Virus record (IMG/VR): IMGVR_UViG_3300029621_000179
Strand: one strand, 5' to 3'
Length of the DNA stretch: 64,000 nt
Source of the DNA: a virus
Lineage: Duplodnaviria; Heunggongvirae; Uroviricota; Caudoviricetes
Shown: one piece after another, positions 14,907 through 32,262 of the stretch
How positions within the stretch are numbered: the first letter of the stretch is position 1
Layout: every line of letters begins with the position of its first letter
Position numbers and translations under genes: made by a program
The notes under the pieces: generated by a model
The model's input: the letters and a program-made list of their open reading frames with translations, nothing else
What the model was told of the DNA's origin: nothing
Database searches by the model: none

Positions 14907-14909
14907 CCC

Positions 14910-15269: not shown

Positions 15270-15278
15270 CACCCCGCC

Positions 15279-15336
15279 GGGGGCCGGGGTCACTTCTCTA
15301 CGGTGAAGTCACACGGAGACCGGTGGCCCCTTTTCT
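15279..15336 (+). terminator. intrinsic terminator after HNH gene
   Basis: GC-rich stem GGGGGCCGG...CCGGTGGCCCC followed by TTTTCT. Confidence 0.5.
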
Positions 15337-15969: not shown

Positions 15970-16189
15970 GAAGATTATCGGTGTGTATCCGATGTTCAAC
16001 ACCGGGGGTATCTGTGTACATGCGATTGACGATGCGGAAGATAAGGTTCTGGCATCCGTGAACGGGGAAAACCCGGAGTGGTGCGAGATGGCTGAACAGC
16101 CGCAGGAAGATGGAGATGAAATGGAGTCGGGCTTTTTGTTCGGCTCCTTTTTCGTGCCGTTTTCAGGGGTCATTCGCATGGGAATCTGA
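15961..16189 (+). CDS. small hypothetical protein (GTG start)
   Basis: AGGAGG 9 nt upstream of GTG; 76 aa; low support. Confidence 0.2.
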
Positions 16190-16205
16190 ATTAGGAGGAA
16201 CCTAC

Positions 16206-17477
16206 ATGAAAGCGACTGCTGAACTGAAGATGCTGCCGGTGTCCGTACTCAAGCCGGCTGCATACAATCCCCGGAAAAAGCTGAAGCCGGGGGATAAAGA
16301 GTACGAGAAAATCAAGAACTCCATTACGGAGTTCGGCTTCGCAGATCCTTTGGTGGTCAATGCCGACATGACGATTATCGGTGGTCACCAGAGACTGACA
16401 GTAGCGATGGAGCTGGGCTACACCGAAGTGCCTTGTGCGGTGGTGGACATCGACAAGACCAGGGAGAAGGCCCTGAACATCGCACTCAACAAGATCACGG
16501 GTGCATGGGATGATTCTCTGCTGGCTGATCTTTTGAAGGACATTGAGGATTCCAACTTCGACCTCGGTAAGACAGGCTTTGACCCGCCTGAGATCGAGAC
16601 GCTGTTCAACAAGGTCCACAGCAAAGAGGTCAAGGAAGATGACTTCGATGTGGAATCGGAGCTGAAGCAGCCGTGCTTCTCCAAAGAGGGCGACCTCTGG
16701 CATCTGGGTAAGCACATCGTTCTGTGCGGCGATTCCACCAAGCCAGAATGCTACGATACCCTGATGGACGGCACCAAGGCAAATCTGGTACTTTCCGATC
16801 CCCCTTATAACGTGGATGTGGAAGAAACGGCTGGCAAGATCCTGAACGACAACATGGGCGATTCGGAATTCTACCAGTTCCTGCTGGCAGCGTTCCAGCA
16901 GATGCACGGGCATCTGGCGGATGACGGCTCCATCTATATCTTCCATGCAGATACGGAAGGGCTGAACTTTAGAAAGGCATTCAAGGATGCAGGGTTCTAC
17001 CTGTCCGGGTGCTGTATCTGGAAGAAGAATGCTCTGGTGCTGGGACGCAGTCCTTACCAGTGGCAGCACGAGCCGTGTCTTTACGGCTGGAAGCAGAAGG
17101 GGAAACACCAGTGGTATTCCGACCGGAAGCAGACGACCATCTGGGAGTATGACCGGCCGAAGTCCAACAAGGACCATCCGACCATGAAGCCCATCGGTCT
17201 GATGAGCTATCCGATCCGAAATTCCACCATGACCAACGGCATCGTCCTCGATCCGTTCCTTGGCAGCGGTTCTACCCTGATCGCCTGCGAAGAAACCGAC
17301 CGTGTGTGCCGAGGCATTGAGCTGGACCCGAAGTTCGTGGATGTGATCGTGAAGCGTTATATCGAACACAGCGAGGGTCACTACGATGATGTGTATGTCA
17401 TCCGTGACAGTCAGAAGCTGAAGTTCGAGGAAGTGGCGACCTTCGAGCCGGAAAGGGAGGTCGCTGATGGAGAATAA
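16206..17477 (+). CDS. ParB-like nuclease domain fused to N6-adenine/N4-cytosine DNA methyltransferase
   Basis: RBS GGAGGA; ParB N-terminal box (LKPAAYNPRK, IIGGHQRL); DPPY motif (LVLSDPPYNV) and a C-terminal SAM-binding region. Confidence 0.8.
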   Translation: MKATAELKMLPVSVLKPAAYNPRKKLKPGDKEYEKIKNSITEFGFADPLVVNADMTIIGGHQRLTVAMELGYTEVPCAVVDIDKTREKALNIALNKITGAWDDSLLADLLKDIEDSNFDLGKTGFDPPEIETLFNKVHSKEVKEDDFDVESELKQPCFSKEGDLWHLGKHIVLCGDSTKPECYDTLMDGTKANLVLSDPPYNVDVEETAGKILNDNMGDSEFYQFLLAAFQQMHGHLADDGSIYIFHADTEGLNFRKAFKDAGFYLSGCCIWKKNALVLGRSPYQWQHEPCLYGWKQKGKHQWYSDRKQTTIWEYDRPKSNKDHPTMKPIGLMSYPIRNSTMTNGIVLDPFLGSGSTLIACEETDRVCRGIELDPKFVDVIVKRYIEHSEGHYDDVYVIRDSQKLKFEEVATFEPEREVADGE

Positions 17478-19596
17478 ACAGCTGACCCTCGGCAGCCTCT
17501 TTGATGGCTCCGGGGGTTTTCCATTGGGCGGGCTTTTGACCGGGCAGATCACTCCGGTGTGGAGCAGTGAGATCGAGCCGTTTGCCATCCGGGTCACGAC
17601 CAAGCGTCTGCCGCAGGTGAAGCATTATGGAGATGTGTCTGCTATCAGCGGTGCAGACCTACCTCCTGTAGACATCATCACTTTTGGCAGTCCCTGTCAG
17701 GATATGTCCATCGCGGGTAAGCGGGACGGTCTGGATGGTTCACGGTCCAGCCTGTTTTACGAAGCAATCCGAATCGTGAAGGAAATGAGGTGTAAGACCA
17801 ATGGAGAAAAACCAAGATTTATCGTGTGGGAGAATGTGCCAGGGGCCTTCTCCTCAAACAAAGGACAGGACTTCAAAGCAGTCCTCGAAGCCGTCATCGG
17901 TGTTAAAGAACCGTCCGCCTCGGTGCCTGCGCCTGAGAAGAAAGGATGGCCCGACGCTGATTACTACGTGGGAGGCGGATGGAGCGTCGCGTATCGAGTT
18001 TTTGATGCACAATGGTGGGGCGTTCCCCAAAGAAGAAAACGTATCTACCTTGTCGCAGATTTTGCAGACCAGAGTGCCCCAAAGGTATTATTTGAGTCCG
18101 AAGGCGTGTCTCGGTATTCTGCGGAGGGCTTCCGTGCGTGGCAAAGAGCTGCCGCCGGTGCTGAAAGCAGCACTGGAGAGACAGGCTGCAGTGGAGCAGG
18201 AGGACGGCTCTGTCTGAACGATCAGGGCGGAGAGAGGATGGATGTGACGGAAGAGGTGACAGCCACCCTCCGTGCAGAGGCACATCATCCGCCGTGTGTT
18301 ATGGAAGCCGCTGGTTTCTGTACCGAGCATTCCGCAAATGCCAGAAGCATTGGATACGAAGAGGAACGGTCACCGACCCTCCGGGCTGGCGTCGTGCCGG
18401 CCGCCATCGCACTGGAAAATCACCCTGCGGACAGCCGGGTGAAGATTTCCGAGGACGGTAAGGTACAGACACTGACAAGCCGGTGTGGTACGGGTGGCGG
18501 TAATGTCCCGATGGTCATGGACGCTGTTGAAAATTCAGTGGAAAGCCCGGTGAAAGAAGTTGAAAACTCTCCGGCGGTCACATTGAAGATCCGTTCCGGG
18601 TGTGAAGGCGGTGGCAAGGGCGCTATCTGGCAGGAAGAAAAGTCGGCTACCCTCGGCTGCAACAACGACCAGACACTGTTCGTTCCGAAATGCTACGGTG
18701 TCTGCTCTAAAGCCAGCCACTCCATGATGTCCGATAATCCGCAAAGCGGCTTCTATGAAGCGGAGACCTCCCGGACACTAGACCGCAGTGGTGGAGATCC
18801 GACCTGCAATCAGGGCGGTATCTGCGTGGTAGAGCCGGTCGCCTTTACCCAGAACCAGAGGGATGAAGTCCGGGATCTGGGAGAGAAGTCAGCGGCACTT
18901 GCAGCAGAGCCGGGGATGAAGCAGCAGACCTTCGTCCTGCAGGGTAATATGATCGGCCGCAAGGATGAGAACGGTCCGCAGGGGGATGGCGTCAATGAGG
19001 ATGTCTGCTTTACACTGGATGCCACTGACCGCCATGCAGTCTGCGCACCGGAGGATGTGTATGCCATGACCACCGGCTCCTATATGCAGGTGGCAAAAGA
19101 AGTCGCACCGACTCTGATGGCACGGGACTACAAAGACCCGACCACCATCGCACCGGTGCCGCATCTGAACGAGGGTGTCATGGGAACGGTGGCAACCGGG
19201 GCGCATCCAAGCGGCTTCAACGGGCAGGATGCTTTCAATGACCGTCTGGTCATCGATAACCCGGAAGCGCAGCCGGCACCTGTGACCTATACCGTCCGCC
19301 GCTTGACACCGACCGAGTGTGCCAGACTGCAGGGCTTCCCGGACTGGTGGTGCCGGAACCTTGGAACAGAAGATCCGACCGAAGAAGAGCTGGCGTTCTG
19401 GGCAGATGTGTTTGAAACGCACCGCAAAATCGTGACCCACGCCAAGAAGCCGAAAACGGAGAAACAGATCCGGAAATGGCTGGCTGACCCGTATACGGAT
19501 TCGGCAGAGTACCGTATCTGGGGCAACGGCATATGCTTAGCCAACGCATTTTTTGTTCTGGCCGGCATCGCATGGTGTGCAGGTCTGGAAGAATAA
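17467..19596 (+). CDS. DNA (cytosine-5)-methyltransferase with ~400 aa variable region (probably multispecific)
   Basis: Motif I LFDGSGGF, motif IV GSPCQDMSIAGKR, motif VI ENVPG, and late motifs TPTECARLQGFPD. A very long target-recognition insert lies between motifs VIII and IX. Confidence 0.85.
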   Translation: MENKQLTLGSLFDGSGGFPLGGLLTGQITPVWSSEIEPFAIRVTTKRLPQVKHYGDVSAISGADLPPVDIITFGSPCQDMSIAGKRDGLDGSRSSLFYEAIRIVKEMRCKTNGEKPRFIVWENVPGAFSSNKGQDFKAVLEAVIGVKEPSASVPAPEKKGWPDADYYVGGGWSVAYRVFDAQWWGVPQRRKRIYLVADFADQSAPKVLFESEGVSRYSAEGFRAWQRAAAGAESSTGETGCSGAGGRLCLNDQGGERMDVTEEVTATLRAEAHHPPCVMEAAGFCTEHSANARSIGYEEERSPTLRAGVVPAAIALENHPADSRVKISEDGKVQTLTSRCGTGGGNVPMVMDAVENSVESPVKEVENSPAVTLKIRSGCEGGGKGAIWQEEKSATLGCNNDQTLFVPKCYGVCSKASHSMMSDNPQSGFYEAETSRTLDRSGGDPTCNQGGICVVEPVAFTQNQRDEVRDLGEKSAALAAEPGMKQQTFVLQGNMIGRKDENGPQGDGVNEDVCFTLDATDRHAVCAPEDVYAMTTGSYMQVAKEVAPTLMARDYKDPTTIAPVPHLNEGVMGTVATGAHPSGFNGQDAFNDRLVIDNPEAQPAPVTYTVRRLTPTECARLQGFPDWWCRNLGTEDPTEEELAFWADVFETHRKIVTHAKKPKTEKQIRKWLADPYTDSAEYRIWGNGICLANAFFVLAGIAWCAGLEE

Positions 19597-20912: not shown

Positions 20913-21068
20913 GCTCCCAAGCCCCCAATGGGGGCCGGAAAATAAGTGAGACCCTCTTCCATTGTACCGATATTAACTCTGAAAATGTACATTATCAAGC
21001 AGATAAACCGCAGAAATGTACACGATCATTCTGCCTCATATTTGTCGAATATATGTTCTTTTATATCC

Positions 21069-21097
21069 TTGCTATTATCCGCACCTGACGGTAATAT
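21069..21097 (+). promoter_or_regulatory. repeated phage promoter copy (TTGCTA-17-TAATAT) + conserved leader
   Basis: Same hexamers, spacing and GCACATACCGAAAGGG leader as the copies at 26895, 27566, 28186, 28779 and 29262. Confidence 0.5.
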
Positions 21098-21144
21098 GCA
21101 CATACCGAAAGGGAAAACAAGGAAAAAACAAAGGAGAACATACC

Positions 21145-22083
21145 ATGAACGATAAAACAAGAGAGCAGATTGAAGCCATGAAAAACCAGACCATCGGAGT
21201 TGAGATCGAGATGAACAACATCACCAGAGAAAAAGCGGCAAGAAAGGTTGCCGAGTACTTCGGAACCAGAGCATGGAACGCCGCCAGCGAGTACGGATAT
21301 TACAGCTGGGCTTGCAAGGACGGACAGGGCAGGGTTTGGAAATTCCAGAGGGATGTGAGCATCTACGGACCGGACGCAGAAAAATGCGAACTGGTCACCC
21401 CGATCCTCACCTACGACGACATCGAGTCCCTGCAGGAAATCATCCGGCTGCTCCGCAAGGCAGGCGCAAAGAGCAGTCCAAGCCGCGGATGCGGGGTCCA
21501 CATCCACATCGGCAAAGGCGACCACACCGCAAAGACCATCCGCAACCTTGTGAACATCATGGCGGCACACGAACAGCAGATCGGCAGAGCCATCCGGATC
21601 GACGCAGGGCGTACCGGACAATATTGCCGGGTAGTCGACCACCGCTTCCTCGACCGGCTGAACCGCGAGAAGCCGACCACCATGCGCAAGCTGGAAGACA
21701 TCTGGTACGAAGGCAACGGTTCCAGCTGGGAAAACCGGAATGCCCACTACAATTCAAGCCGGTACCATATGCTGAACCTCCATGCCACCTTTACAAAAGG
21801 AACCATTGAATTCCGCCTTTTCCAATTCGCAGACCCAGCGGACGGAAAGCGTAACGGACTGCATGCCGGTGAGATGAAAGCCTACATCCAGCTTTGCCTC
21901 GCAATGAGCCAGCTTGCCAAGATGGTCAGAACGGCAAGCCCGAAGCCCCAGCAGACCGACAACGACAAATACGCAATGCGGTGCTGGATGCTCCGGCTGG
22001 GATTCATTGGTGAGGAGTTCGCAACGGCAAGGGAAATCCTTCTGCGGAATATGGAGGGCAACGCAGCATGGCGCAACAAATAA
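21145..22083 (+). CDS. putative amidoligase (Amidoligase_2 / glutamine-synthetase-like fold)
   Basis: N-terminal Glu-rich strands (IGVEIEMNN, ELVTPIL) and GCGVHIHIG resemble the Pfam Amidoligase_2 family; it neighbours AIG2/GGCT genes as that family does in Firmicutes. Confidence 0.55.
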   Translation: MNDKTREQIEAMKNQTIGVEIEMNNITREKAARKVAEYFGTRAWNAASEYGYYSWACKDGQGRVWKFQRDVSIYGPDAEKCELVTPILTYDDIESLQEIIRLLRKAGAKSSPSRGCGVHIHIGKGDHTAKTIRNLVNIMAAHEQQIGRAIRIDAGRTGQYCRVVDHRFLDRLNREKPTTMRKLEDIWYEGNGSSWENRNAHYNSSRYHMLNLHATFTKGTIEFRLFQFADPADGKRNGLHAGEMKAYIQLCLAMSQLAKMVRTASPKPQQTDNDKYAMRCWMLRLGFIGEEFATAREILLRNMEGNAAWRNK

Positions 22084-22151
22084 GCGCCAGCTGTACGGGC
22101 ACCTTTTGGGCGGGCAACCGCCCTTGAGGTGGTAGAAGGAGGTGCAGATTT

Positions 22152-22388
22152 ATGAAAAGCACGTTAAAAAATGAAAGCACACCGGGCGGCAGGACCTTTA
22201 AGGTGACCATCACCGAGACCTACCAGAGAACGGTGACCATTTATGAATCCGAAATGAAAGAGCCGACCGTGGAGGAAGCCCAGCGAGTGGCAGAGGACTG
22301 GTGGCAGGACAGCCAGATTGAGCTTGGGACAGATGATTTTCAGGGCGTGGAATTCACTGGCAGGGAGGACGGTGAGGCGGATGTTTGA
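22152..22388 (+). CDS. small hypothetical acidic protein
   Basis: 78 aa ORF with RBS GGAGG; it overlaps the next start by 8 nt. Confidence 0.35.
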   Translation: MKSTLKNESTPGGRTFKVTITETYQRTVTIYESEMKEPTVEEAQRVAEDWWQDSQIELGTDDFQGVEFTGREDGEADV

Positions 22389-22902
22389 ATTGATCAGCCG
22401 AAGCCCATCCAGATATTATCTTGCCTACGGAAGCAACCTCGACATGGAGCGGATGGGAAAGAGATGCCCATATGCTGTAGTGGTCGGCACGACCGAGATC
22501 ATGGGCTACCGGCTCCTGTTCAAAAAGAGCAAGACCGGCTGCTATGCCACCATTGAACAGGACGCCAATGAAAGCGTACCGGCAGTGGTCTGGAAGCTCT
22601 CGGAATATGATGAGCTCCTGCTGGACCGGTACGAGGGCTGCCCAAGATACTACTACAAGAAACAGTTCCAGCTTCCGGTCTGGAACCTGAACGGGAACCG
22701 CATGAAAAAGGCAAAGCCCTGCATCGCTTATGTGATGCACGAGGACCGGCGGCTTGGCTGCCCGGATGCCGAGTATTTTGAACTGCTGCGCGGCGGATAC
22801 AGCGACTGGGAATTTCCGCTGGACACACTGAAGCGTGGACTGGCAGCTAGTATCGGAAGGGCGGAAGCCATCCGGTATCTGAAGAAGCAGCAGATGATGT
22901 AA
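22381..22902 (+). CDS. AIG2/gamma-glutamyl cyclotransferase (GGCT)-like protein
   Basis: YLAYGSNLDMERM is the hallmark YxAYGSNL motif of the GGCT/AIG2 fold; ~173 aa. Confidence 0.7.
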   Translation: MFELISRSPSRYYLAYGSNLDMERMGKRCPYAVVVGTTEIMGYRLLFKKSKTGCYATIEQDANESVPAVVWKLSEYDELLLDRYEGCPRYYYKKQFQLPVWNLNGNRMKKAKPCIAYVMHEDRRLGCPDAEYFELLRGGYSDWEFPLDTLKRGLAASIGRAEAIRYLKKQQMM

Positions 22903-22956
22903 GAGTACACGATCAAAAGCAAAAAACATTGTGCAGTATATGATGCTCATCGGCCT

Positions 22957-22986
22957 TGATAAATCAGGGCAGAAGAGTGATATATA
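22957..22986 (+). promoter_or_regulatory. variant repeated promoter copy (TTGATA-18-TGaTATATA, extended -10)
   Basis: GGCCTTGATAAATCAGGGCAGAAGAGTGATATATA followed by CCATACCG; it lies upstream of the second GGCT-like gene. Confidence 0.45.
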
Positions 22987-23032
22987 CCATACCGCCAGAC
23001 AAGAGCGGAGAAAACCGAAGGGAGAGATTCAA

Positions 23033-23512
23033 ATGAAGAATAAGAAATATTACATCGCCTACGGCAGCAACCTGTCGGTGGAGCAGATGGCATACCGGTG
23101 TCCGGATGCAAAAATTGCAGGGCAGGCGGTGCTGGCAGGCTGGGAGCTTTTGTTCCGGGGCTGCGCCACCATCGCACCGAACCCGAAGAAGAACACGCCG
23201 GTTCTGGTGTGGGAGATTTCGGAAAGGAACGAAGGAAACCTCGACCTCTATGAGGGCTACCCGAATTACTACCGCAAGGAAGACCTGAACATCGAACTGC
23301 TCCGGGAAGGGGCAGAACCGGAGATGGTGACCGCAATGGTATATATCATGGAGAACGACTTCGGACGCCGCGCACCGAGCCGGTATTACTACAAAGTCCT
23401 GCATGACGGCTACAAGGCATTCCACTTCCCGATGCACATCCTCGAAGGTGCGCTGAAGGAATGCATGGATAAGGATGCCGCCCAGCGGATGATCGAGGAG
23501 GTGCAGGCATGA
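23033..23512 (+). CDS. AIG2/GGCT-like protein (second paralogue)
   Basis: N-terminus KKYYIAYGSNLSVEQM; the same fold motif as the first paralogue. Confidence 0.7.
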   Translation: MKNKKYYIAYGSNLSVEQMAYRCPDAKIAGQAVLAGWELLFRGCATIAPNPKKNTPVLVWEISERNEGNLDLYEGYPNYYRKEDLNIELLREGAEPEMVTAMVYIMENDFGRRAPSRYYYKVLHDGYKAFHFPMHILEGALKECMDKDAAQRMIEEVQA

Positions 23513-23976
23513 ATTTCGCAGATCAGAAAATGGTCAAGAAGTTGAGAAAAGAGTTCCCGGTCGGATGCCGAATCGTCCTCGATGAGATGGATGACAGGCA
23601 GGCACCGCCCATCGGAACGCAGGGAACCTGCAACGGGGTCGATGATGCCGGAAACATCTTGGTGAATTGGGACACCGGAAGCCATCTGAACATTGCCTAC
23701 GGCGCGGACAGTTGCCACCGTGTGGCAACGGATGCCGAGGTCAAGGTGTCGCTCGACCACCTTGGTAAAACGCGACAGACCGGCCCACGTTGCCCCAGGT
23801 GCGGAGCAAAGCCTGACTGCTACGACCATCAGCAGCAGGCACTCAGCCGAAGGGCGGACATCCAGATCTGCAACCGCTGCGGAACGGAGGAAGCGTTAGA
23901 GGACATTGCATGGGGCGGACAGCAGAAGATGCATCTTGCAGACTGGGCAATTGTGAAAGGGGGTTGGGTCGAATGA
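23509..23976 (+). CDS. DUF4314 domain protein with C-terminal zinc ribbon
   Basis: FPVGCRIVLDEMDDRQAPPIGTQGTCNGVDDAGNILVNWDTGSHL fits DUF4314; a CPRCG...CNRCG zinc ribbon follows. Confidence 0.5.
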   Translation: MNFADQKMVKKLRKEFPVGCRIVLDEMDDRQAPPIGTQGTCNGVDDAGNILVNWDTGSHLNIAYGADSCHRVATDAEVKVSLDHLGKTRQTGPRCPRCGAKPDCYDHQQQALSRRADIQICNRCGTEEALEDIAWGGQQKMHLADWAIVKGGWVE

Positions 23977-24344
23977 AAGTTCTTCTGATCAAACCGATGG
24001 AGCATCCGCAGGTGGTTGACATTGAAAACTCCCTGAAAGAGTTCTACCGCATCCTCGACTGCGACTGCATCACAGCCACCTACCCGTGGGAAGAACGCGC
24101 CGCCCTGGTCACCGATGACAACGGGCTGTTCACCGAGAAGCCATTCAGCCGATACATTCCGGAGCTGGAGCAGCCCATCAAGGGAAACTTCTTCATCTGC
24201 GGATTGGGCGAGGAAGATTTCGCAGAGCTGCCACAGGACCTGATTCAGAAATTCAGGGAACGCTTCTGGGTGCCGGAGGCATTCGTCAGCATGTTCGGGC
24301 AGATGGCAGTCATCCAGATGGATGACGGAACGAAGCCGGAATAA
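23973..24344 (+). CDS. DUF3846-like protein
   Basis: MKVLLIKPMEHPQVVDIENSLKEF... resembles the DUF3846 N-terminus; RBS AAAGGGGG. Confidence 0.4.
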   Translation: MKVLLIKPMEHPQVVDIENSLKEFYRILDCDCITATYPWEERAALVTDDNGLFTEKPFSRYIPELEQPIKGNFFICGLGEEDFAELPQDLIQKFRERFWVPEAFVSMFGQMAVIQMDDGTKPE

Positions 24345-24416
24345 GATACCACAATCAGAAAAAATACCCTCTCGGCCAGAAAAGACCGGGAGGGCTTAGT
24401 TTAACAGGAGGAGCCT

Positions 24417-24608
24417 ATGGGACACAGAAAGATGCCGGCTTATGGCGAGAGGGAACACGGCGGCAGATACATTCTGGATGAATACGAATGGTCAAGAAAC
24501 CACTGTAAGGCGGTGACCATCCGCAGATGGAAAAGGGACCTAAAAAAGAAAGCCAGAGCGCATAACCGCAGGGTGATGCATCAGGCAATGCAGGGCGAAG
24601 CCGATTAG
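24417..24608 (+). CDS. small basic hypothetical protein
   Basis: 63 aa ORF; RBS AGGAGGAG. Confidence 0.3.
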   Translation: MGHRKMPAYGEREHGGRYILDEYEWSRNHCKAVTIRRWKRDLKKKARAHNRRVMHQAMQGEAD

Positions 24609-24614
24609 ACGGAA

Positions 24615-24650
24615 AATGGGGGCCTCAAAAGAATGGGAACCCCCTTCCAG
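24615..24650. terminator. candidate bidirectional terminator between convergent genes
   Basis: GGGGG...CCCCC stem with T-runs on both strands (CUUCCAGUUU on plus; AUUUUCC on minus). Confidence 0.3.
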
Positions 24651-24661
24651 TTTACTGTATA

Positions 24662-25062
24662 TTACCTCTGGAAAGCAACGATAGCAAGGAGAACCGCCGC
24701 CATAATGTACACAAACATCTGGCAGCGGTTTTGTGTATCATACCAAACCAAAACGGGGGATACGAGGCAGAACCCCAGCTTCTGCTGGGGGAGCCTTTTG
24801 GGATTCCTTAGAAGAAATCCCAAAAGGCTCATGCCGACCTCGTTCAGTCGTTCCTCCATGCTGTGGTAGTGCCAATCTTCTTCCTCTTCTTCGTCCTCTT
24901 CCTCAAGCTCTTCTGGGAAGGGGTCGTGCCGCCATCCGGCTTTCTGGTATTCTTCTTCCCGGATGTCGTTGCGGTCGTAAATATCCAGCTCGTATTCTTC
25001 TTCAAGCTCTGCGATGCGGTTTTCGATTGCGGTTTCAACTTCTGTAATGGTCTTTTTCATGG
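24662..25062 (-). CDS. acidic protein with C-terminal hydrophobic (membrane-anchor-like) segment
   Basis: RBS GGAGGA on the minus strand; MKKTITEVETAIENRIAELEEEYE..., then a poly-Glu run, then a C-terminal hydrophobic stretch; the only minus-strand gene in this region. Confidence 0.4.
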
Positions 25063-25209
25063 TTTTTGTCCTCCGTTTTTGGTTTGGTTTTCTTTGCTTT
25101 CGTTGTGTGTATAATGCCGCAGAAACACATATATAGCAAGTCAATCAGGGGTTATATATGTACCAAACATGAGGGGCAAAGATCGTTGATAATATGACGT
25201 TTTATGGCC

Positions 25210-25238
25210 TTGCTATCACAGGGCGGTGACGGTAATAT
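25210..25238 (+). promoter_or_regulatory. repeated phage promoter copy separated from its gene by the IS insertion
   Basis: TTGCTA-17-TAATAT plus an ACAGCTAC leader (as in copy 26895); the IS left end begins 41 bp downstream. Confidence 0.5.
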
Positions 25239-25292
25239 ACAGCTACAAAAAGCAAAGGAGTGGTGTTAGAATATAAATAGTACAAAATAAAC

Positions 25293-25643
25293 ATGACCAT
25301 TTTCAATAAATATTATATGATAGTCATAGATCAAGAGAGGAGAATGGTTATGGCAAGAGGTACAAGGTATTCACAAGAGTTTAAGGAAGATGCAGTAAGA
25401 TATCGTTTGGAGCATCCGGAGGTTGCACTTCGTAAGTGTGCTGAAAATCTTGGAATTAGTGAATCTGCACTGAAGAGTTGGATGAAATCAGCAAAGGAAC
25501 ATGAAGGAACTGTTCCGACCCGTGGTTCAGGCAATTACGCAAGTGATGAGGCCAAAGAAATCGCACGTTTGCAGCGAGAGTTACGCGATACGAAGGATGC
25601 ACTTGAAGTATTAAAAAAAGCAATCGGTATTCTGGGAAAATGA
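25293..25643 (+). CDS. IS3-family transposase OrfA (HTH)
   Basis: RBS GAGAGGAG; helix-turn-helix N-terminus (LRKCAENLGISESALKSW) and a leucine-zipper-like C-terminus; slippery A_AAA_AAA at 25613-25619. Confidence 0.8.
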   Translation: MTIFNKYYMIVIDQERRMVMARGTRYSQEFKEDAVRYRLEHPEVALRKCAENLGISESALKSWMKSAKEHEGTVPTRGSGNYASDEAKEIARLQRELRDTKDALEVLKKAIGILGK

Positions 25644-26563
25644 CAAAAACTCTTTACGCTGCTACATCTAGATATGTAGAAGAAATCAACAACCTGCCTG
25701 TGAAACGTCAAGTTTCTGTCAGCGGGATACTGAAAAAATTGGACGTTTCACGATCTGGTTACAATGCATGGAAGAAACGGGTTCCTTCGGACACGTCTAT
25801 TCGGCGAACCGTTTTAAAAGAAAAAATCCAAAAGATTTATGATGATTCACATCAAAACTATGGTGCTCCTAAAATTGCAGCTGAATTACGAAAATCCGGA
25901 GAAAATATTGCTGAAAAAACAGTAGGAAATTACATGCGTCAAATGGGAATAAAAGCCCAATGGATCAAGCCATATACTCAAACAACCATTGACTCTGATC
26001 TCAGCCAGGAACTAAAAAATATCTTAAACGAACAATTTAATCCAGAACATCCAGATGCTGTATGGTGCTCAGATATCACTTATATTTGGACGTATGAAGG
26101 ATTTGTGTATCTTACAAGCATTATGGATCTATATTCCAGGAAAATCATTTCCTGGGTGCTGAGTGAGACGTTGGAGGCATCTCATGTAGTAAAATGTATT
26201 GAGAAGGCAAAACAGTCCAGACATATTGAAAATCCTCTGATTTTCCATTGTGATAGAGGATGCCAATACGTATCCGAAGCATTCCGTAAGGCAACAGAGG
26301 GAATGCTTCACAGTTATTCCAAGAAAGCTTATCCTTGGGATAATGCCTGCATAGAATCGTTCCATGCCCTTTTAAAGCGAGAATGGATTAACCGTTTTAA
26401 AATTTTCAACTACACTCATGCATATAAACTGATTTTTGAATATATCGAGACGTTCTACAATACAGTCCGTATTCATAGTCATTGTGGATATTTATCTCCA
26501 AATGAATATGAGGAAGAATATCTAAAAAATCTGGAAATGAACGTAACATACTTAGCAAGTTAA
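25640..26563 (+). CDS. IS3-family transposase OrfB (DDE/rve integrase core)
   Basis: DDE region DITYI...FHCDRGCQYVS...ESFHALLKREW in the -1 frame relative to orfA. Confidence 0.8.
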   Translation: MTKTLYAATSRYVEEINNLPVKRQVSVSGILKKLDVSRSGYNAWKKRVPSDTSIRRTVLKEKIQKIYDDSHQNYGAPKIAAELRKSGENIAEKTVGNYMRQMGIKAQWIKPYTQTTIDSDLSQELKNILNEQFNPEHPDAVWCSDITYIWTYEGFVYLTSIMDLYSRKIISWVLSETLEASHVVKCIEKAKQSRHIENPLIFHCDRGCQYVSEAFRKATEGMLHSYSKKAYPWDNACIESFHALLKREWINRFKIFNYTHAYKLIFEYIETFYNTVRIHSHCGYLSPNEYEEEYLKNLEMNVTYLAS

Positions 26564-26637
26564 CAATTACATAAAAAAGGAAAATTGGTTGCATTTAATT
26601 TGTACTTTTTCTTGACATAGGACCAGAGGACAGCAAA

Positions 26638-26814
26638 ATGGCTGATTGGAGAACATGGAAAAAAGGGAGAAAGACAACATGGCACTGGAACGAATTCGAT
26701 GGAAGCGGAAGACGGGAAGGAATCATCACCGAGGTTCATGAAGACCATGCGATTATGGAAGCAGACGGCATGCACCTCTGGATCGACGATGACACGGCAG
26801 AGATGTTCAGCTAA
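26638..26814 (+). CDS. small Trp-rich hypothetical protein (58 aa)
   Basis: ATG after AGAGGA, just downstream of the IS right end; probably the gene originally driven by the promoter at 25210. Confidence 0.3.
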   Translation: MADWRTWKKGRKTTWHWNEFDGSGRREGIITEVHEDHAIMEADGMHLWIDDDTAEMFS

Positions 26815-26894
26815 GAAAACGGGGAGGGAAACCTCCCCGGATAAACACATAAATCCTCCAGATCAGGGGGCAGATGATCGTGTACTTTAGCCGC

Positions 26895-26923
26895 TTGATA
26901 GTATCCGGCAGTGACGGTAATAT
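26895..26923 (+). promoter_or_regulatory. repeated phage promoter copy (TTGATA-17-TAATAT)
   Basis: Preceded by the conserved ATCGTGTACTTTAGCCGC. Confidence 0.55.
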
Positions 26924-26953
26924 ACAGCTACCAAAACGAAAGGGGCAAAGAAC

Positions 26954-27160
26954 ATGGAACGCTACACTTACGAGATCACCTTTACACGGCTGGATGGACA
27001 GCCGGATGAAATCCAGCAGCACACCAGCGAGGAGCTGGCAAGAGAATGCTTCCGGCTTTTCGATGAGCCGGACAGCGCAGAGATGTACAGCAAAATCGAA
27101 CTTAGCTGCCACGACTGGGAAACAGGCGCGGATGAGATTCTGGAAACGATGACATTTTGA
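26954..27160 (+). CDS. small acidic hypothetical protein
   Basis: 68 aa ORF preceded by the leader and RBS AAAGGGG. Confidence 0.45.
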   Translation: MERYTYEITFTRLDGQPDEIQQHTSEELARECFRLFDEPDSAEMYSKIELSCHDWETGADEILETMTF

Positions 27161-27175
27161 GAGGAGAACAAAAAC

Positions 27176-27436
27176 ATGACCTACACAAAAATCAACCTTT
27201 ATCTTGCAAACGGAATTCCAGAGGCACTCAGCAACCTCTGGTACGGAAGCGACAGTGCGGTGGTCGAGATCAGGGATGCCGTTGAGGATGCGAAGAACGG
27301 CAAGGACCTTCTGAACCGCATCCAGAAGATGAAGCTCCTTCGGAAATTCACCCTCGACAGGGAGAACGACAAGCGCATCCGCTTCAAGGGAACGGACTGC
27401 TGGCGCAACGTAAGCTACCTCGAAATCATCCGCTAA
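27176..27436 (+). CDS. small hypothetical protein
   Basis: 86 aa ORF; RBS GAGAGGAG; co-transcribed with 26954. Confidence 0.45.
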   Translation: MTYTKINLYLANGIPEALSNLWYGSDSAVVEIRDAVEDAKNGKDLLNRIQKMKLLRKFTLDRENDKRIRFKGTDCWRNVSYLEIIR

Positions 27437-27457
27437 AGGCAAGACCGACAGGCGCAA

Positions 27458-27483
27458 GGGGCTGGAAATGACCAGCCTTTTGC
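27458..27483 (+). terminator. intrinsic terminator
   Basis: GGCTGG-aaatga-CCAGCC followed by TTTTG. Confidence 0.45.
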
Positions 27484-27565
27484 TCGTGTCTGTCTTCCGA
27501 AAGCTGGCATGAAAAGCACATAAATATGACAATTACAGGGTCAAATGATCGTGTAGTTTAGCCGC

Positions 27566-27594
27566 TTGATAGTGTTTCGAGGTGACGGTAATAT
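27566..27594 (+). promoter_or_regulatory. repeated phage promoter copy (TTGATA-17-TAATAT)
   Basis: ATCGTGTAGTTTAGCCGC upstream; the leader GTGCATACCGAAAGGGGAAAAC...ACGGAGG follows. Confidence 0.55.
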
Positions 27595-27638
27595 GTGCAT
27601 ACCGAAAGGGGAAAACAACAAAAACGGAGGATACGACA

Positions 27639-28088
27639 ATGACGAAGAACGAAGACCGCATCAATAAACTTTTCAAGGAACTGGTACCGGATACGGGCAA
27701 GGCAGACAGCCTCGCAGGGGAGCTGGTAAGGGCAATGAGCCGCATCGGATACCGCTTTTACAACGACGGCGACCAGCTGGGCATCGGCTACGGCAAGGAA
27801 ACCTGCAACCCTGCAGGGCGGTTCCTTGGAGCCAAGGGCAACGACAAAATCGCTAAACTGACTGCAGATGCCTGGGCAGTCTACAGCGAGGAAGCCTACG
27901 AAAAGGTTCTGGACATCCTTTGCGGAGCGGTTGCCGACTATGTTGAGCAGAACCCAGACCTTAGAAACCAGCCGACCGAAGATATGTGGGACTTCAAGGA
28001 TGAGGAAGAAGACCAGGATGACAGCTGGGATGAAGAGGAAGATGACTGGGGCGAAGAGGAAGATTACGAGGACGAAGAAGACTACTAA
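27639..28088 (+). CDS. hypothetical protein with poly-acidic C-terminal tail
   Basis: 149 aa ending DEEEDQDDSWDEEEDDWGEEEDYEDEEDY. Confidence 0.5.
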   Translation: MTKNEDRINKLFKELVPDTGKADSLAGELVRAMSRIGYRFYNDGDQLGIGYGKETCNPAGRFLGAKGNDKIAKLTADAWAVYSEEAYEKVLDILCGAVADYVEQNPDLRNQPTEDMWDFKDEEEDQDDSWDEEEDDWGEEEDYEDEEDY

Positions 28089-28103
28089 GCCAGAGAAACA
28101 CAT

Positions 28104-28135
28104 GGGGCTTGCCGGTAACGGCAGCCCTTTTCTTC
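28104..28135 (+). terminator. candidate intrinsic terminator
   Basis: GGGGCTTGCCG-gtaa-CGGCAGCCC followed by TTTTCTTCT. Confidence 0.35.
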
Positions 28136-28185
28136 TGCTGTAATACGCACAGTTCCGGGCGGCTATCTTTGTGTAGTATAGCCGC

Positions 28186-28214
28186 TTGATAGTGTGTGAC
28201 ATAGACGGTAATAT
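28186..28214 (+). promoter_or_regulatory. repeated phage promoter copy (TTGATA-17-TAATAT)
   Basis: TTGTGTAGTATAGCCGC upstream; leader GCACATACCGAAACGGAAAACC...ACGGAGG. Confidence 0.55.
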
Positions 28215-28258
28215 GCACATACCGAAACGGAAAACCAAGAAAAACGGAGGAAACCACC

Positions 28259-28450
28259 ATGAAGAAGAACATTACCAAGGAAGAAGAAAAAGCCCTGCTG
28301 GAGATCGCCAAGCGCCTGATGGCAGCGGTAGACAGCCGGGGCGACCTCGAAGCCCGCGACAATGACAGCGAGGACTTCATTGAGGTTCCGGTCTGGGGCG
28401 TCCAGAAAGCAATGGAGGAAGCCTACCTGCTGGGACGGATGACCAGATAA
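28259..28450 (+). CDS. small acidic hypothetical protein
   Basis: 63 aa ORF; RBS ACGGAGG. Confidence 0.45.
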   Translation: MKKNITKEEEKALLEIAKRLMAAVDSRGDLEARDNDSEDFIEVPVWGVQKAMEEAYLLGRMTR

Positions 28451-28522
28451 ACCGACAGCCTCCGACACAGCCCCACACAGGGGCAGATGTGGGGGTGTGG
28501 ATGCGCCAGGAAGGAAAAGCAC

Positions 28523-28729
28523 ATGGGAGAACGGATGATGGATACCATCGTGGAAATCTACAACCACATGAATGACAGCGATAAGGATGCCTTCACACTG
28601 GGGGATGCCGAGGATATGGTGGAAGACCAGATTAGGATGGACAAGGAAGCCGGGCGGGAACCGCTGACATATGACCCGCAGCTCTTTTACGATACCGTTG
28701 TGGAACTCATGGAGCAGGACGCAGAGTGA
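28523..28729 (+). CDS. small acidic hypothetical protein
   Basis: 68 aa ORF; ATG after GGAAGGAAAAG. Confidence 0.4.
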   Translation: MGERMMDTIVEIYNHMNDSDKDAFTLGDAEDMVEDQIRMDKEAGREPLTYDPQLFYDTVVELMEQDAE

Positions 28730-28778
28730 CGTACATTCTGCCTGGTATTCCGGGTGGAAGATCGTGTACTTTAGCCGC

Positions 28779-28807
28779 TTGCTATTCTTTGCACCTGACG
28801 GTAATAT
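28779..28807 (+). promoter_or_regulatory. repeated phage promoter copy (TTGCTA-17-TAATAT)
   Basis: ATCGTGTACTTTAGCCGC upstream; leader GCACATACCGAAAGGGGAAAGCC...ACGGAGG. Confidence 0.55.
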
Positions 28808-28864
28808 GCACATACCGAAAGGGGAAAGCCCCAAGGGAAAAACGAAAACACGGAGGAATTCACC

Positions 28865-29149
28865 ATGAAAAAGCATTTGATCGACTTTCCAGAAAACAAC
28901 ATCAGCATTGAGAGTTTCTACGACCGACTCAGACCTTGCTACGACAGCATCATGCAGTTCGGTGACCGGGTTTTGGTTGCCCAGATGAACTGGAACGGCA
29001 TGCTGGAGGGAGCGGTATACGGATTTGTGGAAGACCCAGAGGAAGGCTGGTCACCGATTGAGTGCCGACTGGAGCTTCTGAAGATTTCCGATGAGACCTA
29101 CACGGATGCTGGTCACGCGATCGAGTGGTGCATCAAGAACGCACACTGA
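28865..29149 (+). CDS. small hypothetical protein
   Basis: 94 aa ORF; RBS ACGGAGG. Confidence 0.45.
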   Translation: MKKHLIDFPENNISIESFYDRLRPCYDSIMQFGDRVLVAQMNWNGMLEGAVYGFVEDPEEGWSPIECRLELLKISDETYTDAGHAIEWCIKNAH

Positions 29150-29261
29150 AAAAGGGCAGAGCTCCTTCGGGGGCTTTTGCTCGTAGTGGCGGATTCTTCC
29201 AGTGTGGAAATACACATAAATCCGACAAAAAGAGGTGTGTATGATCGTGCAGCATAGCCGC

Positions 29262-29290
29262 TTGCTATGTCCGGGCAGTGACGGTAATAT
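29262..29290 (+). promoter_or_regulatory. repeated phage promoter copy (TTGCTA-17-TAATAT)
   Basis: ATCGTGCAGCATAGCCGC upstream; leader ACAGTCACAACGAAGGGAAAAGCC...ACGGAGG. Confidence 0.55.
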
Positions 29291-29348
29291 ACAGTCACAA
29301 CGAAGGGAAAAGCCCTACGGAAAACAAAACACACGGAGGATACAGACC

Positions 29349-29726
29349 ATGACGAACAAAGCAAAAACCTACCTTAAGAACATTCAGGAAGCTGACACCG
29401 AGAAGAAGCTGATCGGCATCGAGATCGCCTTCAAGCAGGACATGACCCTTGGCTGCAGCGACCTCGGAAGCCTTTGCAGGGCGGCAGAAGACAAGCGGTA
29501 CAGCCTGCGGAATAACGAGGAAACGCTGAAGCTGAAGCAGATCCTTTTCTTCCGGACGAAAGCGGAGATGGATGCCTACCACGACATGAGCCGCAAGCCG
29601 GAAGACTGGACGGAAGCGGAGATCGAGCAGCAGAGAAGCCGCTTCTGCAGCGTCTGGCAGGTCATCGAGGAAGCGGAGCTGGTCGATGAATACGAGGCTT
29701 GGAAGGAAGCCAACCCCAACGCCTAA
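29349..29726 (+). CDS. hypothetical protein
   Basis: 125 aa ORF; RBS ACGGAGGA. Confidence 0.45.
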   Translation: MTNKAKTYLKNIQEADTEKKLIGIEIAFKQDMTLGCSDLGSLCRAAEDKRYSLRNNEETLKLKQILFFRTKAEMDAYHDMSRKPEDWTEAEIEQQRSRFCSVWQVIEEAELVDEYEAWKEANPNA

Positions 29727-29859
29727 CAGCACCCGAAAGGTACACGCCCCGAAAAGGGGCTGTGCCTCGTATCCGATGTGTTTTATATAAAGTTGCCGAA
29801 ATGGGAAACTATTTGTTAGTTATAATGAAAAGTTTCCTGCTTGGGAAAATGCTATTACA

Positions 29860-29887
29860 AGGACTTCTTTGGAGGTCCTTTTTCTTT
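29860..29887 (+). terminator. hairpin plus T-run upstream of terminase genes
   Basis: AGGAC-loop-GTCCT followed by TTTTCTTT. Confidence 0.35.
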
Positions 29888-29917
29888 ACCCATTTTTGCA
29901 GAAAGGAGGAGATGCCA

Positions 29918-30397
29918 ATGGCTACCAGAGGGAGAAAACCAAAGCCGACCGCCATGAAGGAACTGGAAGGTAATCCGGGCAAGCATCCGCTGAACACCAG
30001 CGAACCGAAGCCCAATAAGAAAGCACCGGCCTGTCCGAAGTGGCTGGAGCCGGAAGCAAAGAAAGAGTGGCGTAGACTTGCCAAACAGATGGAAGCCATC
30101 GGCATCCTGACCGAAGTGGACATGGCGGCCTTTGCCGGTTACTGTCAGGCGTATGCCCGATGGAAGGAGGCAGAGGAGTTCATCACCCAGCACGGCACTA
30201 TCGTCAAGACCCCGTCCGGGTACTGGCAGCAGGTGCCGCAGGTGTCCATCGCCCAGACCTATCTAAAGATCATGAACAAGTTTGCAGAGCAGTTCGGTCT
30301 GACCCCGTCCTCCCGAAGCCGGATCATTGCTTCGGACGGCGGTCCGGCGGATGCAGCTGATGAGATGGAGAATCTGCTGGGAGGAGGTGGAAGCTGA
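29918..30397 (+). CDS. terS: terminase small subunit (P27 family)
   Basis: RBS GAAAGGAGGAG; N-terminus MATRGRKPKPTAMKELEGNPGKHPLN is typical of P27-family TerS; directly upstream of TerL. Confidence 0.7.
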   Translation: MATRGRKPKPTAMKELEGNPGKHPLNTSEPKPNKKAPACPKWLEPEAKKEWRRLAKQMEAIGILTEVDMAAFAGYCQAYARWKEAEEFITQHGTIVKTPSGYWQQVPQVSIAQTYLKIMNKFAEQFGLTPSSRSRIIASDGGPADAADEMENLLGGGGS

Positions 30398-32022: not shown

Positions 32023-32046
32023 TATGAAGATTTGGAGGAAAACACA

Positions 32047-32262
32047 ATGAAGTATCTGATGAGTGCAGAATGGTGGAAGGCAGCCGGCATCCGTGCTGCA
32101 AAGACAATGTTCCAGACCGGCGCGGCCCTGGTCGTGACACAGATGCCCGGCGGCACGGTGGACTGGATGGCGGTCGGCAGTGCAGTGATCGTGGCAGGTG
32201 TTGCGTCCCTCGGTACCAGCCTTGCCGGTCTGCCGGAACTGGAAAAGGGGGATAAGGCTTAA
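32047..32262 (+). CDS. small membrane protein (holin-like, two hydrophobic segments)
   Basis: 72 aa with two hydrophobic stretches; the position between TerL and portal is atypical for a holin. Confidence 0.3.
   Translation: MKYLMSAEWWKAAGIRAAKTMFQTGAALVVTQMPGGTVDWMAVGSAVIVAGVASLGTSLAGLPELEKGDKA

What the first reader, a model, noticed from the sequence alone, without database searches (positions are those of the whole stretch)
26638..29726. Tandem array of independently promoted and terminated small-gene cassettes (candidate anti-defence island)
Between the amidoligase block and terS there are at least five back-to-back units. Each is repeated promoter, conserved leader, one or two small (58-149 aa) mostly acidic ORFs, then a hairpin/T-run terminator (27458, 28104, ~29150, 29860). 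None of the proteins matches a known family by eye. In phage genomes, arrays of small fast-evolving acidic ORFs with individual promoters are typical locations for anti-restriction, anti-CRISPR and other counter-defence genes.
Basis: inference. Interest (0 to 1): 0.65.

Follow-up and report, generated by a model that had tools for sequence, protein, structure and literature searches.

The report
Repeated-promoter small-gene array in gut phage
A temperate phage of gut Clostridia carries a row of small, mostly acidic genes of unknown function just upstream of its packaging genes. Each has its own copy of one conserved promoter, and nothing yet shows that they are anti-defence genes.

Summary
One promoter/leader module occurs 7 times on the + strand (21068, 25209, 26894, 27565, 28185, 28778, 29261; 0 expected by chance). 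A diverged eighth copy lies on the minus strand. The module has an upstream box ATGATCGTGTA-TTTAGCCGC, a -35 TTGMTA, a 17-bp spacer, a -10 TAATAT, an ATACCGAAAGGGAAAA leader and a GGAGG ribosome-binding site.

The modules drive the amidoligase/GGACT operon and eight small ORFs of 58-149 aa; seven are acidic. Every unit ends in a conserved GC-rich hairpin, but only some have a T-run. The first unit (26638) has been cut from its promoter by an IS3-family insertion (25261-26625, 3-bp duplication GAG).

The same module is in at least 120 IMG/VR stretches and in prophages of Blautia, Faecalibacterium, Lawsonibacter and other Clostridia. All eight ORFs are under purifying selection (omega 0.07-0.18). 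The terS-proximal gene order is identical in 35 of 43 relatives, so this is a lineage core block, not a hypervariable island. One relative has a hybrid promoter that deletes a cassette, as with T4 PeSLs.

Two ORFs match Pfam families of unknown function (DUF6900, Nmad4). No ORF matches a known anti-defence protein, and two confident structure models are generic helical bundles. Anti-defence remains an untested guess.

The parts
21019..21144 (+). Promoter module P0 (-35 TTGCTA 21069-21074, -10 TAATAT 21092-21097). Here the upstream box ATGATCGTGTA is inverted (21019-21029).
21145..24608 (+). First and longest unit: Amidoligase_2 (21145-22083), two GGACT/AIG2-like genes, DUF4314, DUF3846 and a 63-aa ORF
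24662..25060 (-). Ninth small acidic ORF, on the minus strand. It is about 83 aa in relatives; in this window a frameshift extends it to 132 aa. It has a GGAGG ribosome-binding site.
25111..25139 (-). Diverged copy of the promoter (TTGCTA-17-CATTAT), back to back with P1
25185..25260 (+). Promoter module P1 (-35 25210-25215, -10 25233-25238). It is the natural promoter of the 58-aa gene and is now cut off from it.
25261..26625 (+). IS3-family insertion sequence (orfA HTH_Tnp_1 25293-25643, orfB rve 25640-26563). Ends are TG...CA, the 3-bp target duplication is GAG, GC is 37%. It is absent from all relatives.
26638..26814 (+). p58: 58 aa, pI 4.9, no family. Followed by hairpin 26820-26839 without a T-run on this strand.
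26874..26950 (+). Promoter module P2 (-35 26895-26900, -10 26918-26923)
26954..27160 (+). p68a: 68 aa, pI 4.1, no family
27176..27436 (+). p86: 86 aa, basic (pI 9.4), no family. Followed by hairpin 27454-27483 plus TTTTGCTCG.
27545..27638 (+). Promoter module P3 (-35 27566-27571, -10 27589-27594)
27639..28088 (+). p149ac: 149 aa, pI 4.05. Helical bundle plus a disordered D/E/W/Y tail (residues 120-149). 763 homologues, all unnamed. Followed by a canonical terminator at 28105-28136.
28165..28258 (+). Promoter module P4 (-35 28186-28191, -10 28209-28214)
28259..28450 (+). DUF6900 protein, 63 aa
   Evidence: 66.8 bits; cut-off 24.1
28523..28729 (+). p68: 68 aa, pI 4.05, no family. Followed by hairpin 28736-28759 without a T-run.
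28758..28864 (+). Promoter module P5 (-35 28779-28784, -10 28802-28807)
28865..29149 (+). Nmad4-domain protein, 94 aa. Followed by hairpin 29158-29182, which has 13 conserved pairs, 3 of them with compensatory changes.
29241..29348 (+). Promoter module P6 (-35 29262-29267, -10 29285-29290). This is the last copy before the structural genes.
29349..29726 (+). p125: 125 aa, all-helical, no HTH. 354 homologues, all unnamed. Present in 42 of 43 relatives that span this region.
29738..29880 (+). Intergenic region from p125 to terS. It holds a conserved hairpin (29738-29768), a 64-bp segment absent from the short-intergenic majority of relatives (29790-29853), and a conserved intrinsic terminator (29859-29880 plus T-run) about 20 nt before the terS ribosome-binding site.
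29912..30397 (+). terS (Terminase_4, P27 family): the right-hand boundary of the array

Best explanation
The region 21.0-29.9 kb is a regulon of short, autonomous transcription units in a temperate HK97-like siphovirus of gut Clostridia.

Each unit starts with the same roughly 85-bp module. The module has an upstream box (ATGATCGTGTA-TTTAGCCGC, about -60 to -36), a near-consensus sigma-A promoter (TTGMTA, 17 bp, TAATAT), a conserved leader and a strong ribosome-binding site. Each unit ends in a conserved GC-rich hairpin.

Shown:
- The module is repeated 7 times, plus one diverged copy.
- Among paralogous copies only the functional boxes are conserved. The spacer and the far-upstream sequence have drifted to near random. 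Selection on a shared regulatory signal therefore maintains the copies, not recent duplication or gene conversion.
- The ORFs are real genes under purifying selection. They are lineage-core and have the same GC content as the rest of the phage.
- Recombination between two promoter copies has deleted a cassette in at least one relative.

Inferred:
- Host sigma-A RNA polymerase fires all units together, gated by a factor that binds the conserved upstream box.
- Firing happens on DNA entry or on prophage induction.
- The products are small, soluble, mostly acidic proteins. One has a DNA/SSB-tail-like polyacidic tail. They act by binding host or phage macromolecules to establish infection. Counter-defence is one candidate role, together with the neighbouring SAM synthetase, methyltransferases and amidoligase.
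For: Promoter repeat: 7 copies against 0 expected.

Distribution: the same module is in at least 120 IMG/VR stretches (441 copies) and in 21 stretches of GTDB genomes of Blautia, Faecalibacterium, Lawsonibacter, Oscillospiraceae and Lachnospiraceae.

Conservation profile: high from about -22 upstream of the -35 to about +20.

Paralogue versus orthologue identity, given as orthologues / paralogues in one genome / paralogues in different genomes:
- spacer: 0.65 / 0.39 / 0.39
- box upstream of the -35: 0.81 / 0.63 / 0.61
- -35 hexamer: 0.95 / 0.90 / 0.91

Variant copies found with an anchor upstream of the -35 alone still keep a TAATAT or TATAAT at 17 bp.

Canonical order in relatives: P[amidoligase...] P[p58] P[p68a,p86] P[p149ac] P[DUF6900,p68] P[Nmad4] P[p125, terS]. 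The promoter precedes at least 28 first-gene families.

Selection: omega 0.07-0.18, against 0.04 for terS.

Hairpins are conserved, with compensatory changes. A hybrid P4/P5 promoter in L056 deletes the DUF6900-p68 cassette. Array GC is 0.52, the same as the phage. Acidic pI values and GGAGG ribosome-binding sites.
Against: - No expression data exist, so the timing (early, late or in the lysogen) is unknown.
- No regulator that binds the upstream box was identified.
- An inverted repeat across the -10 (CGGTA-N9-TACCG) is kept in only about 60% of copies, so it is weak evidence for an operator.
- Only some hairpins have T-runs, so autonomy of the units is not proven.
- No protein has a recognisable function.
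- The loci were retrieved with the promoter pattern itself. This biases the sample towards close relatives and fixes the -10 block by construction.
Confidence: 0.55

Rival explanations
1. Anti-defence island in the strict sense. Each cassette encodes an inhibitor of a host immune system such as R-M, CRISPR, CBASS or BREX, and cassettes are swapped rapidly as hosts change.
For: - The proteins are small and acidic.
- The neighbours are self-protection genes: a SAM synthetase, a ParB-N6/N4 methyltransferase and a C5 methyltransferase.
- Each gene has its own promoter, as in the CUP regulon and in plasmid leading regions (PMC6289460, PMC11541004).
- Some turnover occurs and accessory cargo is present.
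Against: - No match to any known anti-defence family or structure.
- The DMP19 match sits among dozens of equal generic helical-bundle hits.
- Purifying selection, and the same gene order in 35 of 43 relatives.
- The block is conserved across hosts of two bacterial families. That is not the pattern of host-specific, fast-turnover counter-defence loci.
Confidence: 0.25
2. Middle/late accessory block. The repeated promoter is activator-dependent, and the last copy (P6) feeds the terS structural operon by read-through or antitermination. The small proteins would then serve packaging, DNA modification or virion loading.
For: - P6 is the only recognisable promoter upstream of terS.
- A conserved intrinsic terminator lies about 20 nt before the terS ribosome-binding site, so late transcription must pass through it.
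- A conserved box at -60 to -36 is where activators bind.
- Nmad4 is a family named for its association with nucleotide-modification genes. It sits between methyltransferases and terL in distant Ca. Heliusvirales phages as well.
- p125 is almost always the gene next to terS.
Against: - The good -35 at a 17-bp spacing argues against activator dependence.
- Hairpins follow each unit.
- p125 has no HTH or sigma-like fold.
- No antiterminator or late activator was recognised in the ORFs scanned.
Confidence: 0.15
3. Tandem morons. These would be lysogenic-conversion genes expressed from the resident prophage, for example for superinfection exclusion or host fitness.
For: - Own promoter and hairpin per unit.
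- The phage is temperate, with a Cro/CI-type HTH and an ImmA-like peptidase at 58204-59483, and is found integrated in genomes.
- Toxin-antitoxin (Phd/PIN) and AAA_14 cargo is inserted at the same place in some relatives.
Against: - GC content is identical to the phage backbone.
- The genes are lineage-core rather than sporadic.
- The proteins are cytoplasmic and acidic, with no membrane or secretion features, and there are no PADLOC hits.
Confidence: 0.1

Closest known systems
PeSLs (promoter-early stem-loops) of T4-like myoviruses (PMC2839356, PMC4122927)
   Same: Both are short composite promoter-plus-stem-loop modules repeated between small ORFs of unknown function. Recombination between copies removes or adds cassettes. 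Here a hybrid P4/P5 promoter in L056 deletes one cassette.
   Different: The sequence is unrelated. The phage is a temperate siphovirus of Gram-positive anaerobes, not a lytic myovirus. The array is largely conserved rather than hyperplastic. Promoter and terminator activity and mini-circles were not tested.
CUP regulon of the IncN plasmid pKM101 leading region, repressed by ArdK (Delver & Belogurov 1997, as cited in PMC6289460)
   Same: Repeated conserved upstream elements carrying a promoter sit in front of several small genes next to the DNA-transfer or entry functions. This gives co-regulation of 'establishment' genes.
   Different: The CUP regulon is on a plasmid, not a phage. It contains proven anti-restriction genes (ardA, ardB) and a known repressor (ArdK). 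Neither is present or identified here.
Reg576-controlled establishment genes of Bacillus plasmid p576 (PMC6294495)
   Same: Several promoters with shared sequence features drive small establishment genes in a Firmicute element. They are de-repressed transiently after DNA entry.
   Different: Its operator is a dual TTATCCC motif bound by a ribbon-helix-helix repressor, and it includes ardC. No such motif, repressor or anti-restriction gene was found here.
Anti-defence islands in the leading region of conjugative plasmids (PMC11541004)
   Same: Both are clusters of small genes, with promoters of their own, near the DNA end expected to enter first. From my own knowledge of where these families are usually found, the DpnD/PcfM, DUF3846, DUF4313, DUF4314 and DUF932 families seen in the window and its relatives are typical of Firmicute conjugative elements.
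   Different: This is double-stranded phage DNA with ordinary promoters, not ssDNA promoters. No validated anti-defence homologue is present. Entry polarity is unknown.
Morons of lambdoid phages and the SPO1 host-takeover module (from my own knowledge, not checked here)
   Same: Both are autonomous promoter-gene-terminator units and dense arrays of small early genes with many promoters.
   Different: Morons are sporadic and compositionally foreign, whereas this array is core and compositionally native. SPO1 is lytic and its promoters are not one repeated module.

Membership tests
PeSL-type composite promoter/terminator cassettes | Repeated sigma-70-type promoter motif between small ORFs | tested here: met
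   7 copies of TTGMTA-17-TAATAT with conserved flanks, 0 expected by chance
PeSL-type composite promoter/terminator cassettes | Stem-loop terminator paired with each promoter | tested here: inconclusive
   Hairpins precede every promoter in nearly all relatives and show covariation. Only about half have a T-run, and termination was not measured.
PeSL-type composite promoter/terminator cassettes | Recombination between copies generates indels between relatives | tested here: met
   L056 has the P4 upstream half fused to the P5 leader, and the DUF6900-p68 cassette is missing. Other deletions end at leader or ribosome-binding-site junctions (L006).
PeSL-type composite promoter/terminator cassettes | Located in hyperplastic regions of T4-like myoviruses | tested here: not met
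   The phage is an HK97-like temperate siphovirus. 35 of 43 relatives share the same gene order.
Anti-defence island | At least one gene homologous to an experimentally validated anti-defence protein | tested here: not met
Anti-defence island | High gene turnover between close relatives | tested here: not met
   There are 8 gene orders among 43 loci, and 35 loci are identical. Turnover lies mainly at the left edge. Sampling is biased towards relatives.
Anti-defence island | Inhibition of a defence system | not testable with these tools
   This needs cloning and defence-panel assays.
CUP/ArdK- or Reg576-type establishment regulon | Repeated promoter-proximal conserved element in front of several genes | tested here: met
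   The conserved box from -60 to -36 and the leader are shared by all copies.
CUP/ArdK- or Reg576-type establishment regulon | Cognate repressor encoded in the regulon and binding the element | not tested
   No HTH or RHH protein was recognised in the array. The Cro/CI-type HTH at 58204-58665 is a candidate, but binding cannot be tested here.
Moron | Own promoter and terminator | tested here: met
Moron | Sporadic presence and foreign base composition | tested here: not met
   The genes are core in relatives. GC is 0.52, against 0.52-0.53 for the backbone.
Pfam DUF6900 (PF21841) | Score above the gathering threshold | tested here: met
   28259-28450: 66.8 bits against a cut-off of 24.1
Pfam Nmad4 (PF18756) | Score above the gathering threshold | tested here: met
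   28865-29149: 72.8 bits against a cut-off of 27
IS3 family insertion sequence | orfA (HTH_Tnp_1) plus orfB (rve), TG...CA ends, 3-bp target duplication | tested here: met

The most novel reading that the evidence does not exclude
The array is the phage counterpart of a plasmid leading region. If cos lies in the p125-terS gap, the array sits at the genome end that is packaged last and injected first. Each unit could then fire from its own strong promoter as soon as it enters. Its eight or nine conserved acidic proteins (p149ac with a DNA-like tail, DUF6900, Nmad4 and others) would be new families of counter-defence or host-takeover factors. They would be shared by a very abundant group of human-gut Clostridia phages and gated by a still unidentified factor that binds the ATGATCGTGTA-TTTAGCCGC box.
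Probability: 0.15. Interest if true: 0.75.

Novelty: new variant of a known kind. Interest (0 to 1): 0.42.

Why it matters
The module gives a sequence signature (GCCGCTTGMTA-N12-GACGGTAATAT). That signature picks out, in hundreds of gut-phage contigs, one co-regulated set of small genes of unknown function in prophages of Blautia, Faecalibacterium and related commensals. The set is compact and conserved, and several carriers are cultured strains, so these phage 'dark matter' proteins can be tested directly. It also extends promoter-mediated cassette shuffling, known from T4-like lytic phages, to temperate siphoviruses of Gram-positive anaerobes. It does not yet add a new anti-defence mechanism.

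Tried and rejected
- Rfam scan of the whole window: no RNA family, so the leader is not a known riboswitch or sRNA.
- blastn of the array against 50,697 phage records: no match. tblastn of p149ac against plasmids: no match.
- PDB sequence searches for four ORFs: nothing.
- NCBIfam and PADLOC: nothing meaningful.
- Operator hypothesis (inverted repeat CGGTA-N9-TACCG across the -10): the second half-site is kept in only about 60% of copies. I dropped it as evidence.
- Concerted evolution or recent duplication as the cause of the repeats: rejected. Paralogues in one genome are no more alike than paralogues in different genomes.
- Contig ends as a proxy for cos: no consistent termini.
- Possible short antisense RNAs from two minus-strand promoter-like sites: the folds are not exceptional.
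- Literature searches for Nmad4, DUF6900, DUF3846, DUF4313 and DUF4314: nothing informative.


Full report
**1. What is in the sequence**

The window is a temperate, HK97-like siphovirus or prophage of about 52% GC.
- Left arm: DUF2800 nuclease, Enc34-type SSB, family-A DNA polymerase, DUF932, SNF2 helicase, MazF/PemK toxin, D5-type primase-helicase, SAM synthetase, HNH endonuclease, a ParB-N6/N4 methyltransferase and a C5 methyltransferase.
- Next: an Amidoligase_2 gene, two GGACT/AIG2-like genes, DUF4314 and DUF3846.
- From 29912: terS (P27 family), terL, portal, ClpP protease, HK97 capsid and tape measure.
- Lysogeny functions: a Cro/CI-type HTH and an ImmA-like peptidase at 58.2-59.5 kb.
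- terL is 76% identical to that of Streptococcus Javan prophages.

**2. The repeated promoter**

The motif CTTGMTA-N12-GACGGTAATAT occurs seven times, always on the + strand. The copies are at 21068, 25209, 26894, 27565, 28185, 28778 and 29261. No shuffle gave a match. The generic sigma-70 scan calls three of them independently as TTGATA-17-TAATAT.

The alignment of the seven copies shows an upstream box ATGATCGTGTA-TTTAGCCGC. It also shows a leader ATACCGAAAGGGAAAA and a GGAGG ribosome-binding site 6-8 nt before each start codon.

A weight matrix built only from relatives scores these seven at 68-104 bits, while shuffles peak near -78. The next best site is a diverged minus-strand copy at about 25139 (TTGCTA-17-CATTAT). 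It drives a conserved acidic ORF on the opposite strand.

**3. The units**

P0 drives the amidoligase/GGACT/DUF4314/DUF3846 operon. The other six units are:

| Promoter | Genes |
|---|---|
| P1 | p58 (26638-26814) |
| P2 | p68a (26954-27160) and p86 (27176-27436) |
| P3 | p149ac (27639-28088) |
| P4 | a DUF6900 protein (28259-28450) and p68 (28523-28729) |
| P5 | an Nmad4 protein (28865-29149) |
| P6 | p125 (29349-29726) |

Seven of the eight small proteins have pI 4.0-4.9; p86 has pI 9.4.

In this window P1 is separated from p58 by a 1365-bp IS3-family element (25261-26625). The element has 37% GC, TG...CA ends and a GAG duplication. It is inserted in the ribosome-binding site, and relatives have the uninterrupted junction.

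**4. Ends of the units**

GC-rich hairpins follow each unit in nearly all relatives.
- The hairpin after p149ac and the one at 29859-29880 are canonical terminators.
- Those after p86 and Nmad4 carry TTTTGCTCG. The Nmad4 hairpin has 13 conserved pairs, three of them with compensatory changes.
- Those after p58, p68 and p125 lack a T-run.

The generic terminator scan is not enriched (7 found, 6.1 expected). So 'independently terminated' is plausible but only partly shown.

**5. Relatives**

It also retrieved 21 stretches from GTDB genomes of Blautia, Faecalibacterium, Lawsonibacter, Clostridium fessum, Oscillospiraceae and Lachnospiraceae, several of them inside large chromosomal contigs. These loci and the window together hold 441 promoter copies.

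The commonest architecture is P[amidoligase, (DpnD/PcfM), GGACT, GGACT, DUF4314, (DUF3846)] P[p58] P[p68a,p86] P[p149ac] P[DUF6900,p68] P[Nmad4] P[p125, terS...]. Of 43 loci that span p149ac to terS, 35 have exactly this order.

The promoter precedes at least 28 different first-gene families overall. Accessory cargo includes DUF4313, DUF7678, DUF7698, a longer DUF6900 protein, a Phd/PIN toxin-antitoxin pair and an AAA_14/DUF4143 ATPase.

**6. Are the ORFs genes?**

Nei-Gojobori estimates over 84-1461 sequence pairs per family give median omega of 0.07-0.18 for all eight. terS gives 0.04 and the amidoligase 0.16. An overlapping alternative-frame ORF gives 0.69. The genes are not fast-evolving either.

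**7. Why the repeats are conserved**

| Segment | Orthologous copies | Paralogues, same genome | Paralogues, different genomes |
|---|---|---|---|
| 12-nt spacer | 0.65 | 0.39 | 0.39 |
| Far-upstream segment | 0.72 | 0.35 | 0.34 |
| Box upstream of the -35 | 0.81 | 0.63 | 0.61 |
| -35 hexamer | 0.95 | 0.90 | 0.91 |
| Leader | 0.81 | 0.61 | 0.59 |

Paralogues in one genome are no more alike than paralogues in different genomes, so gene conversion is not the cause. Only the functional boxes are held, which is the signature of selection on a shared regulatory signal.

The -10 block was fixed by the retrieval pattern. However, copies found with an anchor upstream of the -35 alone still carry TAATAT or TATAAT at 17 bp, while the GACGG prefix varies.

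**8. Cassette shuffling**

L056 lacks the DUF6900-p68 cassette. Its junction matches the window's P4 upstream of the -10 and P5 downstream of it, so the crossover lies inside the conserved core. L006 joins the P1 leader directly to the p86 ribosome-binding site. This behaviour matches that described for PeSLs in T4-like phages (PMC2839356, PMC4122927).

**9. Function of the proteins**

- Pfam assigns only DUF6900 and Nmad4, both of unknown function. PHROGs gives only 'unknown function' families.
- NCBIfam, PADLOC and PDB sequence searches give nothing.
- p149ac has 763 homologues and p125 has 354, all unnamed.
- p125 (pLDDT 88) is all-helical with no HTH, and its hits are generic.
- Nmad4 homologues occupy the same position, after methyltransferases and before terL, in distant Ca. 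Heliusvirales gut phages.

**10. Interpretation**

The architecture is solid. It is a regulon of autonomous units under one promoter type that also serves as a recombination substrate.

The timing and purpose are inferred. The near-consensus -35 with 17-bp spacing suggests a sigma-A promoter that does not need an activator. The conserved -60 to -36 box suggests an extra factor. I favour expression as a block on entry or induction, with products that bind host or phage macromolecules. Counter-defence is one possibility, given the neighbouring methyltransferases and SAM synthetase.

Three rivals remain:
- a strict anti-defence island;
- a middle/late block whose last promoter feeds terS through the conserved terminator at 29859-29880;
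- tandem morons, which native GC content and core status argue against.

**11. Comparison and novelty**

The closest known systems are:
- T4 PeSLs;
- the CUP/ArdK regulon of pKM101 (PMC6289460, citing Delver & Belogurov 1997);
- the Reg576 establishment regulon (PMC6294495);
- plasmid leading-region islands (PMC11541004).

This array shares the principle but not the sequence, the host or the element type. It lacks a proven anti-defence gene and an identified regulator. I rate it a new variant of a known kind, of moderate interest.

Noticed in passing
window 25261-26625: An IS3-family insertion sequence (37% GC, orfA/orfB, TG...CA ends, GAG target duplication). It sits inside the ribosome-binding site between promoter P1 and the 58-aa gene and is absent from all 21 relatives that carry this cassette. 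Its right end carries an outward TTGACA.
   Followed up: yes
window 24662-25139 (minus strand): A conserved acidic ORF on the opposite strand, with a diverged copy of the same promoter placed back to back with P1. It is about 83 aa in relatives. In this window a frameshift near codon 77 extends it to 132 aa.
   Followed up: partly
window 20927-21029 and 24615-24718: Two copies of a roughly 100-bp element at the 3' ends of the preceding + strand operons. Each holds a minus-strand promoter-like site (TTGATA or TTGCTA, 17 bp, TAATAT) that points straight into a hairpin. These may be short antisense RNAs or bidirectional terminators. The folds are not exceptional.
   Followed up: partly
window 29859-29911: A conserved intrinsic terminator (AAGGACTTC-TTYG-GAGGTCCTTTTTCTTT) lies about 20 nt before the terS ribosome-binding site in all relatives examined, with no room for a promoter after it. 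Transcription of the structural operon must read through it, which suggests antitermination control.
   Followed up: partly
window 29790-29853: A 64-bp AT-rich segment that contains a TATAAT. It is present in the window and about 22 relatives and absent from about 37. In three relatives a Phd/PIN toxin-antitoxin pair is inserted in the same intergenic gap.
   Followed up: partly
window 13743-19596: The phage encodes its own SAM synthetase next to an HNH endonuclease, a ParB-fused N6/N4 methyltransferase and a 709-aa C5 methyltransferase. This looks like a self-methylation and cofactor-supply module.
   Followed up: no
window 10577-11140: A PemK/MazF-type toxin gene lies immediately upstream of the D5 primase-helicase ORF and overlaps it. 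No antitoxin was looked for.
   Followed up: no
window 32032-32262: A small ORF with a match to the r1t-type holin family (28.7 bits) sits between terL and portal, which is an unusual place for a holin.
   Followed up: no
L142 (PV036425.1) 5992-6252, and other Ca. Heliusvirales records: Nmad4 homologues (37-42% identity) occupy the same slot, after DNA methyltransferases and just before terL, in distantly related gut phages.
   Followed up: partly
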